A DNA stretch of 64,000 bases, taken from the NCBI GenBank assembly GCA_965204375.1, contig OZ241986.1, forward strand, positions 640,001 through 704,000, read 5' to 3'. The position numbers were made by a program, and so were the translations under genes. The notes under the pieces were generated by a model. That model worked only from the letters and a program-made list of their open reading frames with translations. It was not told the origin of the DNA and did no database searches. This stretch comes from Candidatus Latescibacterota bacterium. Lineage in GTDB: Bacteria; Latescibacterota; UBA2968. The number at the start of each line of letters is the position of its first letter. Position 1 is the first letter of the stretch. Shown here piece after piece: positions 18,394 through 34,923 of this stretch.

Positions 18394-18519
18394 TTATTTT
18401 TTGGGTGGTGGCTTTGGTGGTGGCTTTGGTGGTGGTTTTGATGGCGGTTTTGATGGACGTGCAGGGCGCCCTCCTCTTTGTTCGTAATTGGACTTACCTC
18501 TATTACTCTGCTGTGGCAT
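18394..18519 (-). CDS. 41-aa Pro/Lys-rich peptide (not in the ORF track)
   Basis: MPQQSNRGKSNYEQRGGRPARPSKPPSKPPPKPPPKPPPKK; AAGGAG RBS; overlaps the stop of the upstream gene. Confidence 0.55.
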   Translation of the reverse strand: MPQQSNRGKSNYEQRGGRPARPSKPPSKPPPKPPPKPPPKK

Positions 18520-19054
18520 ATCTACTCCTTAGATATTCGGCGGCTTCGTCAAGGCACTTTTCGTTAAGTTTGTGATTTTCAGATATGTCTGAGAATCCTA
18601 TTGTGCTTGTTACAATAACCATAGTGTGAGACAACTCCCTGTCTTTGGCAATTATTTCTGCGTCTTCCATATCCATTGACCTCATATCGGCCCAGAGTTT
18701 TTCCCATTCACTTTCTAACAAACCGCAGTGGACGCTTATTGCATGCAAGATCGCAGACTTTCTTCCCCAATCAAGCACAAAATCTACAGCAAGGGTAGCA
18801 GCAAGAACGAGGCCAAAACCAAGTTGCCACCCGTAATCCAATGCGTTAATAAATGATACTACTCCAGCGGTTGCAGAAACAAATAGAAGAAACCGAACCC
18901 CAGTATGCCATTTGCGGTAGTTATCGGAAAGATAAGCATAATACCGAACCAACCTACAGGCATCAAACAAGTGTTCCCATACCTCCTGTTCTATATGTTC
19001 ACGGTTAGAGGGCGGCAATGGTGGTGAACCTGCTACAATCCCAGGAGTATCCAT
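18503..19054 (-). CDS. SLATT-like two-TM effector protein
   Basis: Helix (RYY..LSDNY), two TM helices, helical tail (H..I...W..LW); GGAGG RBS. Confidence 0.6.
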   Translation of the reverse strand: MDTPGIVAGSPPLPPSNREHIEQEVWEHLFDACRLVRYYAYLSDNYRKWHTGVRFLLFVSATAGVVSFINALDYGWQLGFGLVLAATLAVDFVLDWGRKSAILHAISVHCGLLESEWEKLWADMRSMDMEDAEIIAKDRELSHTMVIVTSTIGFSDISENHKLNEKCLDEAAEYLRSRYATAE

Positions 19055-19770: not shown

Positions 19771-19887
19771 CAGTTTTGCGTCGGGGATTATGTATTATAG
19801 TGCCGAGAACATAATCCACATAATCCCACAATAAAAAAGCTGGCTACTCACTGATAAAGAAGCGGCCAGCTTTTCCTCTAAAATGAT

Positions 19888-20364
19888 TTAGGTACTGCCT
19901 TTTATTCTACGTTGCATCATTCTTCTTTTTCTGTAATATTCCGGGTTATATTTGCTTCCATCAGCCTTTTGTGGTGTTTGTGTCTTGGGCCTCACAGGAC
20001 CTTTAGACCCAAACCATTCTGACAGCTTATCTTTCGCCAGATTCGCTGTTTCAGCCGTCATATATGCTCTGGCAAGACCCAAAGCTGTTGCTAAAACTCC
20101 CGCATCATCTCCATACCCAACCAGAGGTGTCATATCAGGGACCGCATCTATTGGGATAATAAAGTATGCTAAGGCACTATAAATCGCGGTTTTTACCGTG
20201 ATCGGTGTTCCTTCTTGCTTTGCGGTATAGTAAAGCTCTAGCGATTTTTTAACAACTGCCCTACCCGCGGTAGTAGCTTGATTAGACAGTTTATCCCAAA
20301 ATCCACGCTCCGTGTACTTCTCTGGCTCTGGTAACGAGGGACTCTTACGATTTCCGCTTTGCAT
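19888..20364 (-). CDS. YkvA/DUF1232 membrane protein with an extra basic C-terminal tail
   Basis: FWDKL...AG......L.LYY...ALAYFIIPIDAVPD.TPLVGYGDD; GGAGG RBS at ATG 20364. Confidence 0.85.
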   Translation of the reverse strand: MQSGNRKSPSLPEPEKYTERGFWDKLSNQATTAGRAVVKKSLELYYTAKQEGTPITVKTAIYSALAYFIIPIDAVPDMTPLVGYGDDAGVLATALGLARAYMTAETANLAKDKLSEWFGSKGPVRPKTQTPQKADGSKYNPEYYRKRRMMQRRIKGST

Positions 20365-20398
20365 CTCTACCTCCGGTGTGAGTGTTAGCCCATAATCC

Positions 20399-20561
20399 GG
20401 CACCCCGGTTTGGGTGCCGGGCGGTATCAACACTCGCGCAGTAGAGATGCGGGAAGTCCTACTTATTTACCAAGGCTTGGGGAGCTACCCCTCGCCTATG
20501 TGATTGGTTATTGTATTCGGCAGGCCACCCGACATACGGGCACCGCACGAGCGTTGATACC
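20399..20561 (-). ncRNA. Candidate structured RNA, copy 1 (family unidentified)
   Basis: 19-bp closing stem, inner hairpins and 3' hairpin covarying with copy 2; TTGACT-17-TATCAT promoter at 20593-20565. Confidence 0.65.
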
Positions 20562-20747
20562 TGTATGATACAATAGCCTTTTCTGTAAGTCAAAACATAA
20601 ATCCCTATCTAATCTGATTGACGGGTTTTGTGTTGTACAACACGAGGGGCACATGTTGCCTGCCATAGTTTGACATTTGATTCTGGAAATCCTATTTTGT
20701 TACTTTGAAATAGGCAAGGCATGCGCTGATTCTAAAAGAAGATAAAG

Positions 20748-21236
20748 ATGGCTAAGGGCGACCATATTTGTGTAAGTAGAGGACTCTACTGGCATCATGG
20801 AATTGATCTCGGAAATGGCCGAGTCATACACTATACGGGGTACCCTGGGGATAAGGGCAGAAATGCCGCTATTAAAGTTGAAAGTATCCAAAAATTTGCC
20901 AAAGGAAGGGAAATTTACTACGGAGACTCTAAAGCGCAATATTCGCATGATGAAATTGTGAGGCGTGCCGAAGGTCGGATTGGTGAAGAGGACTACGATA
21001 TCGTCGGCAACAATTGCGAACATTTTGTGAACTGGTGCAGAACTGGCCGACATAAGAGCCAGCAAGTCAATACGGCGGCGGCTTTGGTTACACCTGCTGC
21101 ACCTTACGCGTACCTTAAACAGAAATTCGGTGCTCCGACACCTCCGGCACCACAAAAGGCTGACGGCAGTAAATATAATGCGGAATATTACAGAAGAAAA
21201 AGAATGATGCAACGCAGAATAAAGGGTAGCACCTAA
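20748..21236 (+). CDS. LRAT-family (permuted NlpC/P60) acyltransferase/phospholipase with a basic C-terminal tail
   Basis: GDHI, HHGIDLG, VIHY, NNCEHFVNWC catalytic motifs. Confidence 0.9.
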   Translation: MAKGDHICVSRGLYWHHGIDLGNGRVIHYTGYPGDKGRNAAIKVESIQKFAKGREIYYGDSKAQYSHDEIVRRAEGRIGEEDYDIVGNNCEHFVNWCRTGRHKSQQVNTAAALVTPAAPYAYLKQKFGAPTPPAPQKADGSKYNAEYYRRKRMMQRRIKGST

Positions 21237-21642
21237 ATCATTTAATCGGTCGATTTTTTTTATGAATGAGTGTCTAAATGGAGGCAGAAATACATTTTTC
21301 AGGGCCTGTTTTTGGGCGTATTTGCACAAAAAAACGCCAATTTGCGGGCCTGGGTACACTGAAAAAGGGCAATTTAGGGGCTTTTTACAATATTCGAGGC
21401 GAGCAAGGCGTAGTCTGTTTTTGTGTTGGAAGGCGCTGAACAGCCATAAATGGGTCAGGTAAAGGAAAAAAACAGCGTTTCTGTGGTGACATGGTAGCAA
21501 AAGGGCGTGTTTTTGCTCAAAATGCCCCGCATGCGGTTCCGCCCTCAGTGTGTCATCCTGCCCAAGTAAGCGGACATGTTGGGTGCAAAAGCCCGTCGAT
21601 CGTTCTGATTAACGGGCTTTTGTGTTGTACTCGAGGCGGGTT

Positions 21643-22335: not shown

Positions 22336-22488
22336 GTGTTGCTCCTTTGTGTTGGGTGGTGAGTACACACAAAAAGCACCTGGAAACACGCGCTCCAGGT
22401 GCTTTCTATTTTTCCCAAATAGTCTTGAAAAACTTCTACAGTTTTCGCGTGGACTTTTCGCATGGTGGACTTTCTGCGAGGTGGTTGT

Positions 22489-22651
22489 GGCACTCAAAAT
22501 TGAGTGCCGGGCACAGTCCACCGTCACGCAGAAAGATGCGATTAAGCCCTGCCTGTTTACCCTAGATCGGGGAGCTACCCGTCACCGTTAATGGGCTATT
22601 GTATTCAGCAGGCTACCCGACAAAACGGGTATCTGCCTGACAATGGACTGT
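22489..22651 (-). ncRNA. Candidate structured RNA, copy 2
   Basis: Same length and architecture as 20399-20561; TTGACA-17-TATTCT promoter at 22684-22656. Confidence 0.65.
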
Positions 22652-22692
22652 TGCCAGAATACAACCACAGGCAGGGGGTGTCAATATAAATA

Positions 22693-23022
22693 TCACGTAT
22701 CGAACCAACCGACCATTTGCTCAGCGGCTTGCTTTTTCGCCTTTGGTGTGATGTGCATTGCAATAGCGGCGACTGTGCTGATCAGTACGCCGAGGTCGTC
22801 TGTGAACCCGAACACTGGCGTTGGGTCAGGTATGGCATCAATGGGCGATATGAAATAGGCCAGTGCCGCGAAAACTGTGGCCTTCGCCCACTTGGGCGTA
22901 TCCTTTGATTCGGCAGTGTAATACAGCCATAGAGCTTTTTCAATCACATCGCGGCCAGCTTTGCGAGCGAATGTTTTGATCTTCTGCCAGAAATCGGCCT
23001 CGCTAAAATCCTTGTCGGCCAT
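22693..23022 (-). CDS. YkvA/DUF1232 membrane protein (no tail)
   Basis: FWQKI...AG......LWLYY...ALAYFISPIDAIPD.TPVFGFTDD. Confidence 0.85.
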   Translation of the reverse strand: MADKDFSEADFWQKIKTFARKAGRDVIEKALWLYYTAESKDTPKWAKATVFAALAYFISPIDAIPDPTPVFGFTDDLGVLISTVAAIAMHITPKAKKQAAEQMVGWFDT

Positions 23023-23153: not shown

Positions 23154-23375
23154 TCAGGGGAGTCCGATACTTTCCGAAAATTCCAGTGGGGCGTTGTCGG
23201 CCCTGACCAACTGGCCAGTGAGGTACTGCTCCAAGATGGAACGGATGACAGTGTTTCGAGTATCCCACGAGTTACCGGCGGCGCGGTCGAGACGTACAAC
23301 GATACCGCGCGGGATTTTTGCAGCAACAATCATCAGCTCCCTTTTTGGCGGCGGCTTTCCGTTGGATTTGCTCAT
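23154..23375 (-). CDS. Ribbon-helix-helix (CopG-like) protein
   Basis: Strand-helix-helix pattern; paralogous to the C-terminus of 23718-24308. Confidence 0.6.
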   Translation of the reverse strand: MSKSNGKPPPKRELMIVAAKIPRGIVVRLDRAAGNSWDTRNTVIRSILEQYLTGQLVRADNAPLEFSESIGLP

Positions 23376-23717: not shown

Positions 23718-24308
23718 TTATTGTAAGGACGTGGGCAATGGACGCCTGACCATTGGGGCGTCAAAGTCGATGCTGTTTGAGTAGTCCAGCGGCGCGTCGT
23801 CTGCCCTGATCAATTCCCCATTGAAATACTGATCGAGGACTTTTCCTATCACCTGATTGCGGGAATCATGAGAGTTGCTTTTGGCCTTCTCAATCTTCGC
23901 CAAAAGTGGCCGAGGGATCCTCACAGACACCAGCTTGAGATTGTTTGTCCTGGGCTGTCCAACAAGGCGTTTGGTCTGGCGCTCGATGCGGGCTTTCTCT
24001 TTCCATTCCAGCGACACGGCTTGCCCTCTCGATAATCCAGTGTCCAGGCATTCAGCACGCCAGACGGATCCCGGCTTTAAGCCTTGCCCGATCGGGCTGT
24101 TTTTTGTGCGGGAATGCTCTTTGATCCTGTCAACAATTCTGCCCTCTGTGGCCTCGACAAAGGTTTGACCATTGGCAAGGGTTATTCGATAGACCGAGTA
24201 ATGGCTTTCGTCCTCTGGGGGATCCGTGAGGTGGTATCCACAAAGACCCTTCTCGACAGGCGGCAAGAGACAATACAGATGCTTGCAATAGTTCTTCAGA
24301 ATGTCCAT
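23718..24308 (-). CDS. Degenerate GIY-YIG-like domain fused to an RHH domain
   Basis: SVYRIT.....FVEAT...DRIKEH...A..LE followed by LVSVRIPRPLLAKIE...RNQVI. Confidence 0.5.
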   Translation of the reverse strand: MDILKNYCKHLYCLLPPVEKGLCGYHLTDPPEDESHYSVYRITLANGQTFVEATEGRIVDRIKEHSRTKNSPIGQGLKPGSVWRAECLDTGLSRGQAVSLEWKEKARIERQTKRLVGQPRTNNLKLVSVRIPRPLLAKIEKAKSNSHDSRNQVIGKVLDQYFNGELIRADDAPLDYSNSIDFDAPMVRRPLPTSLQ

Positions 24309-33282: not shown

Positions 33283-34923
33283 GTGATTAAATGCGTTCTG
33301 TATGTACGAGTTTCCACCGACCTGCAAGCCGAGATTAAGAACAGTAGTCTCGATACCCAAATTGATCTGCTTCAGAAGTACATCGAAATTAAGGATTCCA
33401 CGTCGCCAAAGGAAGAATGGAAAGTGGTGGCGACCTATCGTGAAGAAGGAAAATCAGGCAAGAATTTAGAGCGTCCTGAATTCAAACGGATGGTTCGAGA
33501 CATTGAGCAGGGTAAAATCAATGCGGTATTATGCACAAAAATTGATCGTGTCAGCAGGTCTATCGTCGACTTTTATCAATTCCAAGAATTTCTAAAAGAG
33601 CATAAAGTAACATTCATATCTCTCCAGGATAATTGGGACACGTCAACTGCTATGGGGCGGTTTGCCCTCTCAATTTCTTTGGTAATGGCCCAGCTAGAAA
33701 GGGAACGCACCAGTGAACGTACAAAAGAAAAAATGCAGTGGCGTGCAGAGAAGGGTCTGTGTAATGGCGGACAGATTCTTGGGTATGATAATGATCCAGA
33801 CAACAAAGGTGTTCCAAAGCCCAATGAGGCAGAACGAGAACAGGTACTCTTAATTTTTCAGACGTATGTTAAAGAGCAGAGTTTTCGGGCTACGGCACGA
33901 ATCATAAATGAAAAAGGCTATCGTACGAAATCATACATATCGAGGAGAGGTAATATCCACGTTGGCAGAAAATTCAATAAAACACAGATCATGCGTATGT
34001 TGCAAAATGAATTTTATATTGGAAAAATTACTCACAAAGGGAAGACGTATGACGGCCAGCATGAACCCATTATTCCAATGGAATTATGGAATCGGGTGCA
34101 AGCTATCATAAAAACCAACCGAGTCACTGGTTCCAGAAGCAGAAAACAAAACCTGCATACCTTCTTGCTACAAGGTCTGGTAAAATGCGGATTATGTGAA
34201 TCTCACATGACGCCCACTTATGCTCAGAACCGCCAAAAAAAGCACTATTTCTATTATCATTGCACCTGTAAAATCCATCGTGGAAACGATGAATGCAAAA
34301 TGAAACCTGTGCCTGCACAAGCACTTGAACAGGTGGTCTCAGATCGGTTAATTCAACTCAGTGACGACCAGAAACGTGTCCAGGAGCTTATCGCAGAAGC
34401 TACGACAAGCAACTCAGAGCGTATAAAAACTTTGGGGCAGACACAGGAAAATTATCGCAGGAATCTCAAAGATATTGAAAAGAGGCTGGATGCTTTGGCG
34501 GAAAGCATTGCTGGACGCAAGATCGGCATAAAAACCATCAGTCAAAAAATCATCGGCCTGGAAGAACAAAAAAGCCAAATAGAGCAGGAGATGATGGAGA
34601 ATGAAACAACGCTTGCAGAGGCAAAACAAAAGGCCGTAAGTGTTGCTCAGTGGGAGCAAAAACTCACGACCTTTGAGGAATTATATAATGAAGCCACACC
34701 AGAGGAAAAAAAAGACCTCTTAAGGCTGCATATCAACCACCTGATCTATACCCCTGATGGGATTCAACTCGCCTTATTTGATCCCAGTGCCGAAGTGGAT
34801 AGGCCCAAAGTTCAGCGAGTCGTTGCATCTGGCTCCGGCGGTAGGACTCGAACCTACGACCCAGTGGTTAACAGCCACTTGCTCTGCCAGCTGAGCTACG
34901 CCGGAACGTCATATTTCCAATAG
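33283..34923 (+). CDS. Large serine recombinase (integrase)
   Basis: YVRVST catalytic Ser, SG....RP.F, DRVSR, recombinase domain (YIG), zinc ribbon (C..C...YY.C...C), coiled coil; AAGGAGG RBS. Confidence 0.95.
   Translation: MIKCVLYVRVSTDLQAEIKNSSLDTQIDLLQKYIEIKDSTSPKEEWKVVATYREEGKSGKNLERPEFKRMVRDIEQGKINAVLCTKIDRVSRSIVDFYQFQEFLKEHKVTFISLQDNWDTSTAMGRFALSISLVMAQLERERTSERTKEKMQWRAEKGLCNGGQILGYDNDPDNKGVPKPNEAEREQVLLIFQTYVKEQSFRATARIINEKGYRTKSYISRRGNIHVGRKFNKTQIMRMLQNEFYIGKITHKGKTYDGQHEPIIPMELWNRVQAIIKTNRVTGSRSRKQNLHTFLLQGLVKCGLCESHMTPTYAQNRQKKHYFYYHCTCKIHRGNDECKMKPVPAQALEQVVSDRLIQLSDDQKRVQELIAEATTSNSERIKTLGQTQENYRRNLKDIEKRLDALAESIAGRKIGIKTISQKIIGLEEQKSQIEQEMMENETTLAEAKQKAVSVAQWEQKLTTFEELYNEATPEEKKDLLRLHINHLIYTPDGIQLALFDPSAEVDRPKVQRVVASGSGGRTRTYDPVVNSHLLCQLSYAGTSYFQ
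34830..34905 (-). tRNA. tRNA-Asn(GTT), island insertion site
   Basis: TCCGGCGTAGCTCAG...GCTGTTAAC...GGTTCGAGTCC...GGAGCCA cloverleaf. Confidence 0.95.

What the first reader, a model, noticed from the sequence alone, without database searches (positions are those of the whole stretch)
19888..21236. Two unrelated, divergently transcribed proteins (YkvA/DUF1232 and LRAT) share a 28-aa Arg-rich C-terminal tail under purifying selection
Seen: PQKADGSKYNPEYYRKRRMMQRRIKGST (19888-19974, minus) versus PQKADGSKYNAEYYRRKRMMQRRIKGST (21150-21236, plus), 25/28 identical. By codon, 8 differences are synonymous and 3 are non-synonymous (P/A, K/R, R/K), so the peptide is conserved rather than just the DNA. 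A Pro-rich linker precedes both tails. A second YkvA paralogue 2 kb away (22693-23022) lacks the tail, so it is an add-on module. Inference: a portable tag that routes a lipid acyltransferase/phospholipase and a membrane protein to the same place. Options are a basic C-terminal translocation signal, a membrane or nucleic-acid anchor, or an arginine-rich RNA-binding motif for the structured RNA encoded between the two genes.
Basis: partly seen in the sequence, partly recalled or inferred. Interest (0 to 1): 0.82.

Follow-up and report, generated by a model that had tools for sequence, protein, structure and literature searches.

The report
Shared C-terminal peptide on three proteins
Two neighbouring, unrelated genes really do end in the same 28-residue peptide; it is a rare, selectively maintained add-on, also found on a third protein family in a few related bacteria, and its job is unproven.

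Summary
A 96-nt inverted repeat (19881-19976 / 21148-21243, 89%) encodes the last 28 residues of a DUF1232/YkvA protein and an LRAT protein. They differ at 11 bases: 8 synonymous, 3 conservative (dN/dS 0.05, Fisher p 2e-5; dS about 0.9, so the copy is old). The tail is not confined to this pair. Searches found 11 intact carriers and one frameshifted: 4 LRAT, 6+1 DUF1232, and 1 EcsC protein (PADLOC candidate PDC-S29). All share an invariant KADGSKY core behind a variable flexible linker, followed by a cationic stretch that AlphaFold2 models as a helix in the two window proteins. Each family also has close tail-less relatives. Among the genomes I could place, it is limited to one genus (2 of 168 genomes of the phylum) and lies in mobile or defence regions. 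No type IV secretion ATPases were found. The intergenic RNA is a multi-copy element that also accompanies tail-less YkvA genes. The tail is too hydrophilic for a classical membrane-targeting helix. Best reading: a portable docking peptide, probably native to a small YkvA clade and copied onto neighbouring genes by 3'-end recombination, that brings its carriers to one partner or site at the inner membrane face. The function is inferred.

The parts
19888..20364 (-). DUF1232/YkvA gene with C-terminal extension (P0004, 158 aa)
   Evidence: ORF. Pfam PF06803 E 3.7e-12, 46.2 bits against cut-off 23. AlphaFold2 mean pLDDT 80.5.
19888..19974 (-). Tail copy A: PQKADGSKYNPEYYRKRRMMQRRIKGST plus stop
   Evidence: AlphaFold2 models residues 141-155 as a helix, block pLDDT 80-86.
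19975..20007 (-). Linker SKGPVRPKTQT between the canonical YkvA end (..SEWFG) and the tail
   Evidence: Canonical homologues end near residue 120. The model shows coil, block pLDDT 54-70.
20748..21236 (+). LRAT-family (NlpC/P60 superfamily) gene (P0001, 162 aa)
   Evidence: Pfam PF04970 E 9.9e-28, 97.3 bits against cut-off 24.3. H16, H17, H28 and C90 are invariant in 9 homologues.
21150..21236 (+). Tail copy B: PQKADGSKYNAEYYRRKRMMQRRIKGST plus stop
   Evidence: Helix 145-159 predicted at low confidence.
21129..21149 (+). Pro-rich linker GAPTPPA
19881..19976 (.). Left arm of the 96-nt inverted repeat (tail, stop and 7 nt beyond)
   Evidence: I1, 89% complementary
21148..21243 (.). Right arm of the 96-nt inverted repeat
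20371..20599 (-). Structured leader RNA between a promoter-like site and the YkvA Shine-Dalgarno; one member of a multi-copy element family
   Evidence: nhmmer. In an alignment of 7 copies, 14 of 49 pairs show compensatory changes. Promoter-like TTGACT-17-TATCAT at 20593-20565.
20670..20698 (+). Promoter-like site for the LRAT gene (TTGACA-17-TATTTT)
   Evidence: consensus match only
19833..19874 (-). Terminator-like hairpin with T-run after the YkvA stop
   Evidence: Read directly from the sequence. Not called by the scan because its loop is over 8 nt.
22693..23022 (-). Tail-less DUF1232 paralogue, followed by a second copy of the RNA element (22442-22688)

Best explanation
The tail is a real, translated, selectively maintained C-terminal peptide module. 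It has three parts: a flexible linker of variable length, an invariant core KADGSKY (usually followed by N), and a Tyr/Arg/Lys-rich stretch; this stretch was modelled as a helix in the two window proteins, the only ones folded. It is probably native to a small clade of DUF1232/YkvA membrane-hairpin proteins. It was copied by recombination of gene 3' ends onto the adjacent LRAT gene, giving the inverted repeat seen here, and in another genome onto an EcsC (PDC-S29) gene. I read it as a docking peptide. The invariant core would be recognised by a shared partner at the cytoplasmic face of the membrane, and the cationic stretch would add electrostatic affinity for an anionic surface. Unrelated small membrane-acting proteins of mobile or defence regions would thereby be brought to the same place. 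Shown: it codes for protein, it is under purifying selection, it is modular, it is rare, and the secondary structure and charge are as predicted. Inferred: the direction of transfer (about 0.6) and the docking function (about 0.35-0.4).
For: Purifying selection on an old duplicate: dN/dS 0.048, dS 0.93. There are 11 intact carriers in three Pfam families: LRAT P0001, P0002, P0003, P0159; DUF1232 P0004, P0006, P0155, P0157, P0162, P0163; EcsC P0156. P0005 is a twelfth, frameshifted. K-A-D-G-S-K-Y is invariant in all 12 (N follows in 11, T in P0005), whereas linkers vary from 7 to about 40 residues and the basic stretch varies (net charge +4 to +9 in the seven carriers computed). P0003 and P0159 repeat the core alone in tandem (PQKADENKYN / PQKVDGNKYN), which argues for recognition of the core rather than charge alone. 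Synonymous codons differ in the core between the window and G015. There are tail-less close relatives in every family. The G015 EcsC orthologue is 86% identical and stops at ..IGSKA, where P0156 continues ..IGSKGYVPG..PKADGSKYN. LRAT P0158 and P0160 belong to the same 90% cluster as P0003. YkvA P0011 is tail-less. The five tail-bearing YkvA rows in the tree fall in one SH-aLRT 95 clade of 6 rows, and 0 of 500 label shuffles were as clustered (quick tree). They have diverged to 46-54% identity, whereas the LRAT carriers are 79-81% identical, so the tail looks older in YkvA. More distant LRAT homologues (38-43%) end in a hydrophobic helix with a short basic end, or right after the domain, and have no such tail. 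AlphaFold2 gives coil for linker and core and a helix for 141-155 of P0004, block pLDDT 80-86. Context is mobile or defence-rich: a roughly 35-kb island with a serine recombinase beside a tRNA, Fic, AbiC, helicase, methylase-HNH and PIN/Phd genes; in G015 the carrier lies beside a CRISPR array; P0156 matches PDC-S29 at 1.9e-87.
Against: No partner is identified and no experiment bears on function. The module is very rare. No further carrier appeared in 185,579-species genome contigs (type-A peptide patterns only), in JGI metagenome contigs or in IMG/VR. Only 2 of 168 genomes of the phylum carry it. Rarity could equally mean a neutral passenger in a small gene pool. Tail-less LRAT and EcsC variants show it is dispensable for the folds. 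P0005 has a frameshift inside the tail. The YkvA-to-LRAT direction rests on a quick tree of 106 columns (support for exact monophyly is low and the careful search did not finish) and on relative divergence. P0004's own tail resembles the LRAT tails more than other YkvA tails, so the reverse direction or repeated gene conversion is not excluded. The tail helix of P0001 is low confidence, pLDDT 47-55.
Confidence: 0.5

Rival explanations
1. The tail is a purely electrostatic juxtamembrane anchor. The polybasic stretch binds anionic phospholipids, and the conserved core is only a structural cap.
For: Net charge is +4 to +9. The carriers are membrane-associated families. The LRAT carriers have at most a weak hydrophobic segment where more distant homologues have a clear C-terminal hydrophobic helix, so the tail could replace a lost anchor.
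Against: The basic stretch is the least conserved part; P0157's tail is +4 and includes acidic residues. The core is invariant and is duplicated on its own in P0003 and P0159. Mean hydrophobicity of -0.6 to -1.0 with moment 0.3-0.57 does not fit a surface-seeking amphipathic helix. YkvA and EcsC already have hydrophobic segments.
Confidence: 0.2
2. The tail is an arginine-rich nucleic-acid-binding motif. It would bind the structured leader RNA between the two genes, or phage or plasmid nucleic acid.
For: The YYRRKRMMQRRIK composition resembles arginine-rich RNA-binding peptides (recalled, not tested). It is very hydrophilic. A structured RNA lies between the genes. The context is a defence island.
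Against: The RNA element has 8-9 copies in this genome, in front of other genes. It sits next to tail-less DUF1232 genes in four fetched loci of relatives, two of them from G003, which has no tail match, so it does not depend on the tail. Type-B tails (..KNYREFRSEKRGG) are only weakly basic. All carriers are membrane-associated proteins.
Confidence: 0.12
3. The tail is a C-terminal secretion or translocation signal, of the positively charged type IV secretion kind.
For: It is C-terminal, flexible, positively charged and shared by unrelated proteins on a mobile island.
Against: No VirB4 (PF03135) or VirD4 (PF02534) match in G000 or G015. No conjugation or phage structural genes appeared among the Pfam hits of the 41 window ORFs scanned or of the 16 ORFs in the 20 kb to the left. 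YkvA and EcsC have hydrophobic membrane segments. Other coupling-protein families were not searched.
Confidence: 0.05
4. The tail has no function of its own. It is a passenger DNA repeat kept similar by gene conversion between the inverted arms.
For: The arms are inverted repeats 1.2 kb apart. Identity runs 7 nt beyond the stops. In run X4, the end of a relative's YkvA contig fits the LRAT arm better than the YkvA arm. Tail-less variants exist.
Against: Synonymous sites are near saturation while the protein is conserved (dN/dS 0.048, p 1.9e-5); conversion would erase synonymous differences. The core is kept across 46-54% diverged YkvA proteins and on EcsC with different codons.
Confidence: 0.03

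Closest known systems
C-terminal protein-sorting tags shared by unrelated proteins within a lineage (LPXTG/sortase, PEP-CTERM/exosortase, GlyGly-CTERM/rhombosortase) - recalled
   Same: A short C-terminal module with a signature motif and a basic end, present on unrelated proteins, lineage-restricted, gained and lost as a unit.
   Different: Those tags have a transmembrane helix between the motif and the basic cluster, and their carriers have N-terminal signal peptides. Here there is no hydrophobic segment after KADGSKYN, and P0001 has no hydrophobic 19-residue window at all. No NCBIfam model matches the tail. No cognate sorting enzyme is known.
FtsZ C-terminal organisation: disordered linker, conserved docking peptide, short basic variable end - recalled
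   Same: The same three-part layout: a linker of variable length, an invariant short peptide and a variable basic end. In FtsZ the peptide docks several membrane-associated partners.
   Different: No sequence similarity. Here the module sits on three unrelated families and the partner is unknown.
Positively charged C-terminal signals of type IV secretion substrates - recalled
   Same: C-terminal, unstructured, Arg-rich, on unrelated proteins of mobile elements.
   Different: No VirB4 or VirD4 in the two carrier genomes. Such signals have no invariant eight-residue core. The carriers here include integral membrane proteins.
C-terminal membrane anchor of LRAT/PLAAT enzymes (recalled) and of bacterial LRAT homologues
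   Same: In homologues 39-43% identical (L003, L004) the catalytic domain is followed by a C-terminal membrane-targeting segment: a hydrophobic helix with a short basic end.
   Different: In P0001 and P0002 the hydrophobic segment is degenerate (no Kyte-Doolittle window above 1.4), and a linker plus the KADGSKYN tail follows.
Arginine-rich peptides such as HIV Tat or lambda N - recalled
   Same: A similar composition of Tyr, Arg, Lys and Gln in a short helix.
   Different: No test of RNA binding was possible. The tail sits on membrane proteins, and its conserved part is the non-basic core.

Membership tests
LRAT (Pfam PF04970, NlpC/P60 superfamily) for 20748-21236 | Profile score above the curated cut-off | tested here: met
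   97.3 bits against 24.3, E 9.9e-28, profile positions 5-119 of 120
LRAT (Pfam PF04970, NlpC/P60 superfamily) for 20748-21236 | Catalytic His / His / Cys (NCEHF motif); the identity of the triad is recalled | tested here: met
   H16, H17, H28 and C90 are invariant in the alignment of 9 homologues. Enzyme activity was not tested.
DUF1232 / YkvA (Pfam PF06803) for 19888-20364 | Profile score above the curated cut-off | tested here: met
   46.2 bits against 23. 2353 homologues at E<=0.001.
EcsC (PF12787) / PADLOC PDC-S29 for P0156 | Profile match | tested here: met
   EcsC 47 bits against 30.4. PDC-S29 E 1.9e-87 over 10-215 of 220. PDC-S29 is only a candidate system: in one paper I saw one passage listing it as a PADLOC hit, with no function test.
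Tripartite C-terminal sorting signal (sortase or exosortase type) | Hydrophobic transmembrane stretch between the motif and the basic cluster | tested here: not met
   The tails have mean hydrophobicity -0.6 to -1.0 and no hydrophobic run.
Tripartite C-terminal sorting signal (sortase or exosortase type) | N-terminal signal peptide on carriers | tested here: inconclusive
   No 19-residue window with Kyte-Doolittle above 1.4 anywhere in P0001 or P0002. No dedicated signal-peptide predictor was available.
Type IV secretion substrate signal | A type IV secretion system in the same genome | tested here: not met
   PF03135 and PF02534: 0 of 2 genomes (G000, G015), with positive controls ringing.
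Amphipathic membrane-targeting helix (MinD/FtsA type, recalled) | High hydrophobic moment with moderate mean hydrophobicity | tested here: not met
   Moment 0.31-0.57 but mean hydrophobicity -0.58 to -1.0 on the Eisenberg scale.
sRNA-Xcc1 (Rfam RF02221) for the leader 20408-20533 (-) | Score at or above the gathering threshold | tested here: not met
   27.7 bits against 53. Four other copies give no match at E<=0.1.

The most novel reading that the evidence does not exclude
KADGSKYN plus the cationic helix is a lineage-specific effector tag. A single, still unidentified reader (a protease, a chaperone-like adaptor or a phage-triggered sensor at the membrane) would recognise the core. It would thereby regulate or activate three unrelated membrane-acting proteins of defence islands: an LRAT-type lipid hydrolase or acyltransferase, a YkvA hairpin protein and an EcsC/PDC-S29 protein. 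Different effectors would then be wired to one trigger. This is loosely analogous to cleavable C-terminal inhibitory peptides of bacterial gasdermins (recalled).
Probability: 0.2. Interest if true: 0.75.

Novelty: new variant of a known kind. Interest (0 to 1): 0.45.

Why it matters
Short peptide modules that move between unrelated bacterial proteins are usually sorting or docking signals, and each one found has pointed to a dedicated machine. This one has no match in Pfam, NCBIfam or the PDB, and the motif appears in none of the papers searched. It is under strong selection and sits on three families of small membrane-associated proteins of unknown role in mobile or defence regions. Finding its reader would give a first functional handle on DUF1232/YkvA, on bacterial LRAT homologues and on EcsC-like PDC-S29 proteins. 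Against that, it is confined to a handful of genomes of one genus, so its general importance may be small.

Tried and rejected
- Complex prediction for LRAT plus YkvA (alignments A7, A6) never ran. There is no result either way.
- ESM Atlas look-alikes of the tail: no usable hit.
- PDB profile search with the tail: best E 0.93.
- Foldseek of the YkvA model against the PDB: nothing at E<=0.001.
- NCBIfam: no family for the tail.
- PADLOC: no hit for LRAT, YkvA or seven neighbouring ORFs.
- DNA pattern for KADG[S/T]KYNxxxY: 3 metagenome and 5 viral loci, all internal KADGTKYN in other proteins and none C-terminal.
- Tail-profile hits at E 0.04-0.94 in 17 relatives were treated as noise.
- Sequencing runs: no RNA holder was listed. 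X1-X3 hold the stretch at 100% and may be the source. Only contigs were laid, and none of X1-X3 shows an inversion joint between the arms.
- The careful tree did not finish in two runs; only the quick tree is used.
- Literature: DUF1232/YkvA gave 20 papers. Going by the listing of 15 (titles and abstract starts), none is a study of the family's function. For LRAT with anti-phage terms, none of the 10 listed papers mentions LRAT.
- Supplements of papers were closed and were not consulted.
Full report
OBSERVATION

The window holds a DUF1232/YkvA gene on the minus strand. The ORF is listed as 19888-20433; the likely start is the ATG at 20364 behind a GGAGGT, which gives the 158-aa protein stored as P0004. 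It also holds an LRAT-family gene on the plus strand (20748-21236, 162 aa, P0001). The two are transcribed divergently from promoter-like sites at 20593-20565 (-) and 20670-20698 (+).

Their 3' ends form an inverted repeat, 19881-19976 against 21148-21243, 96 nt and 89% complementary. This encodes PQKADGSKYNPEYYRKRRMMQRRIKGST and PQKADGSKYNAEYYRRKRMMQRRIKGST. The 11 base differences are 8 synonymous third-position changes and 3 conservative replacements.

By Nei-Gojobori counting, dS is 0.93, dN 0.045 and the ratio 0.048 (Fisher p 1.9e-5). Only the annotated frame is both open and gives this pattern. The copies are therefore old and have been kept as protein, not as DNA. Outside the tail the two proteins are unrelated. 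The genome holds the tail only at these two places. A second DUF1232 paralogue at 22693-23022 ends at ..GWFDT without it.

HOW WIDESPREAD IT IS

I searched about 5.8 billion proteins with the last 42 residues of P0001, restricted to proteins of 89-284 aa. Only four proteins came back: the two of the window and two LRAT orthologues, P0002 and P0003. Longer proteins gave none.

phmmer of P0004 against 1.84 billion cluster representatives gave 2353 DUF1232 proteins. The canonical ones end near residue 120 of P0004. Two of the best 150 carry the motif: P0005 (83% identical) and P0006 (55%).

A profile of six tails, searched against proteins of 112-2000 aa, added three more: P0155 and P0157 (DUF1232) and P0156. 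Only the 8000 candidates sharing most words were scored in that search. P0156 is an EcsC-family protein on the same 693-kb contig as LRAT P0002. It matches the PADLOC candidate PDC-S29 at 1.9e-87.

The 90%-identity clusters added P0159 (LRAT), P0162 and P0163 (DUF1232). They also added LRAT variants without the tail: P0158 and P0160, which have a different 17-residue end, and P0161, which is truncated.

The tally is 11 intact carriers (4 LRAT, 6 DUF1232, 1 EcsC) plus P0005. P0005's tail reads ..EYYKKKEWCNAK. That is what a one-base shift in the A-rich run would give. The old frame would still read roughly RMVQRKI, which I infer from the genetic code. I cannot tell whether the shift is an assembly error or a real lesion.

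No carrier turned up in the following searches:
- Genome contigs, one genome for each of 185,579 species, using type-A peptide patterns only;
- JGI metagenome contigs;
- IMG/VR. The eight DNA-pattern hits are internal KADGTKYN in unrelated proteins.

Among whole genomes, the tail profile hits 2 of 61 relatives and 2 of 168 genomes of the phylum, both in the window's genus: G000 and G015. The LRAT gene itself was found in none of 40 relatives.

ANATOMY OF THE MODULE

All 12 tails share K-A-D-G-S-K-Y; N follows in 11 and T in P0005.

Before this core lies a linker of 7 to about 40 residues, rich in Pro, Gly, Ser and Lys. After the core there are two types.
- Type A is xEYYR[KR][KR]R followed by more basic residues. 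It occurs on all LRAT carriers, on EcsC P0156, and on YkvA P0004 and P0005.
- Type B is xKNYRxxRxxKRG. It occurs on the other five YkvA proteins.

P0003 and P0159 carry an extra copy of the core alone.

Net charge is +4 to +9. Mean hydrophobicity is -0.6 to -1.0 and the hydrophobic moment 0.3-0.57. AlphaFold2 models the linker and core of P0004 as coil and residues 141-155 as a helix with block pLDDT 80-86. The P0001 tail helix is low confidence.

GAIN AND LOSS

In G015 an EcsC orthologue 86% identical to P0156 stops at ..FIGSKA, whereas P0156 continues ..FIGSKGYVPGRAQVHSYPKADGSKYN... The YkvA junction reads ..WFGSKGPV... The shared GSKG may mark the joint; this is inference.

The five tail-bearing YkvA rows in the tree sit in one clade of six rows with the tail-less P0011 (SH-aLRT 95, quick tree; 0 of 500 label shuffles were as clustered). 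That clade has diverged to 46-54% identity, whereas the LRAT carriers are 79-81% identical. LRAT homologues at 38-43% identity end in a hydrophobic helix with a short basic end, or right after the domain.

The simplest history is that the tail is native to this YkvA clade and was copied onto the LRAT gene next door and onto an EcsC gene. The reverse direction, or repeated conversion between the arms, is not excluded. P0004's tail is type A like the LRAT tails. In run X4, a contig 91% identical to the YkvA gene ends in a piece that fits the LRAT arm better.

CONTEXT

Window positions 1 to about 34,900 look like an integrated island. They have lower G+C and a large serine recombinase (33283-34920) beside a tRNA (34833-34905). 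They carry Fic, two AbiC-like genes, a ResIII helicase, HATPase_c_3, a PLD-like gene, a ParB-like gene, a methylase-HNH fusion, Rad52, RadC and a PIN/Phd pair. The left flank is ordinary chromosome with transposases.

Parts of the island backbone recur at two places in G015 without the LRAT and tailed-YkvA pair. In G015 the tailed YkvA lies next to a CRISPR array, RAMP and Cas_APE2256 genes, a PIN toxin and an AEP-TOTE protein. Its tail-less EcsC gene lies 15 kb away.

(a) Translocation signal. No VirB4 or VirD4 family was found in G000 or G015, with positive controls ringing. No secretion or virion genes appeared among the Pfam hits of the window ORFs scanned.

(b) Anchor. A classical amphipathic or hydrophobic anchor does not fit the numbers. 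A purely electrostatic one remains possible, but it does not explain the invariant non-basic core or its tandem repeat.

(c) RNA-binding motif for the RNA between the genes. The RNA is real: in an alignment of seven copies, 14 of 49 pairs show compensatory changes. It starts just after a promoter-like site and ends at the YkvA Shine-Dalgarno. However, it is a family with 8-9 copies in this genome, in front of several other genes. It also lies directly downstream of tail-less DUF1232 genes in four fetched loci of relatives, L013, L014, L016 and L018. Two of these are from G003, which has no tail match, and two from G015. It does not need the tail. Its resemblance to Rfam sRNA-Xcc1 is below threshold (27.7 against 53 bits) and is absent in four other copies.

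MOST LIKELY MECHANISM

The layout of a variable flexible linker, an invariant short core and a variable cationic stretch is that of a docking peptide. I propose that the core is read by one partner at the cytoplasmic face of the membrane and that the cationic stretch adds affinity for an anionic surface. Unrelated small membrane-acting proteins would thereby be brought to one site.

My confidence is about 0.9 that it is a selected, portable coding module, about 0.6 for the YkvA origin and about 0.35-0.4 for docking. The rivals are a pure electrostatic anchor (0.2), nucleic-acid binding (0.12), a secretion signal (0.05) and a functionless repeat (0.03).

The boldest reading not excluded, at about 0.2, is an effector tag through which one reader, for instance a protease or a trigger sensor, controls three kinds of defence-island effectors.

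COMPARISON WITH WHAT IS KNOWN

The comparisons below are recalled unless a call is cited. The kind, a short C-terminal module shared by unrelated proteins of a lineage, is known from sortase and exosortase tags. This one lacks their transmembrane stretch and matches no NCBIfam model. The closest analogy in layout is the FtsZ C-terminal linker, peptide and basic end.

The two domain families are ordinary members of PF04970 and PF06803. The motif string occurs in none of the papers searched. I rate the finding a new variant of a known kind. It is of moderate interest because it is well supported as a selected module but confined to a few genomes and without a demonstrated function.

LIMITS

- Short-motif searches depend on shared words. 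Proteins of about 80-111 aa were not covered.
- Only type-A patterns were scanned across genome contigs.
- Complex prediction never ran.
- No RNA data were available.

Noticed in passing
window 20371-20599 (-) and 22442-22688 (-); genome copies near C1:1318015-1318729 (two), 2990645, 4304178, 6229248, 6243947; L013, L014, L016, L018, L038:9068-9260: A structured RNA element of about 200 nt with its own promoter-like site. It has a long closing stem, a conserved AAUACAA loop region and a terminal GC hairpin. In an alignment of 7 copies, 14 of 49 pairs show compensatory changes. It is often immediately downstream of tail-less DUF1232 genes, or upstream of genes for secreted or membrane proteins. 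It is not in Rfam above threshold (weak sRNA-Xcc1 hit for one copy only). Contigs of an unrelated run (X4) cover it at high depth.
   Followed up: partly
window 1-34920: An island of about 35 kb bounded by a large serine recombinase (33283-34920) overlapping a tRNA (34833-34905). It carries Fic, two AbiC-like genes, a ResIII helicase plus HATPase_c_3 plus PLD-like plus ParB-like block, a methylase-HNH fusion, Rad52, RadC and PIN/Phd. Parts of its backbone recur at two loci in G015.
   Followed up: partly
window 23154-23375 (-) and 23718-24308 (-): Two neighbouring ORFs of different length share a similar C-terminal stretch of about 38 residues (..RNTVIRSILEQYLTGQLVRADNAPLEFSESIGLP against ..RNQVIGKVLDQYFNGELIRADDAPLDYSNSIDF). 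This is a second case of a shared C-terminal module in the same island.
   Followed up: no
window 18394-18519 (-): A 41-aa ORF ending in a (KPPP)n-like repeat, just downstream of the 183-aa ORF 18503-19054. That ORF has hydrophobic helices and no Pfam match.
   Followed up: no
window 19881-19887 and 21237-21243: The seven bases after both stop codons are identical (ATCATTT), although synonymous sites inside the tails are about half diverged. The reason is unknown.
   Followed up: no
L038:11129-12688 (G015): A 520-aa protein combining TPR repeats, an AEP-TOTE primase domain and a C-terminal piece matching the end of Cas1. It lies beside a CRISPR array and the tailed YkvA gene.
   Followed up: no
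proteins P0003 and P0159: These LRAT orthologues carry a tandem duplication of the linker plus core (..PKPLTPQKADENKYN-SAPKPPTPQKADGSKYN..) and divergent extreme C-termini.
   Followed up: partly
window 19926 / 21200 in run X4: A contig of another study is 91% identical to the YkvA 3' half. It switches at 19926 to the opposite-strand arm at 21200, meaning its tail end resembles the LRAT arm. This is compatible with exchange between the two tails.
   Followed up: no
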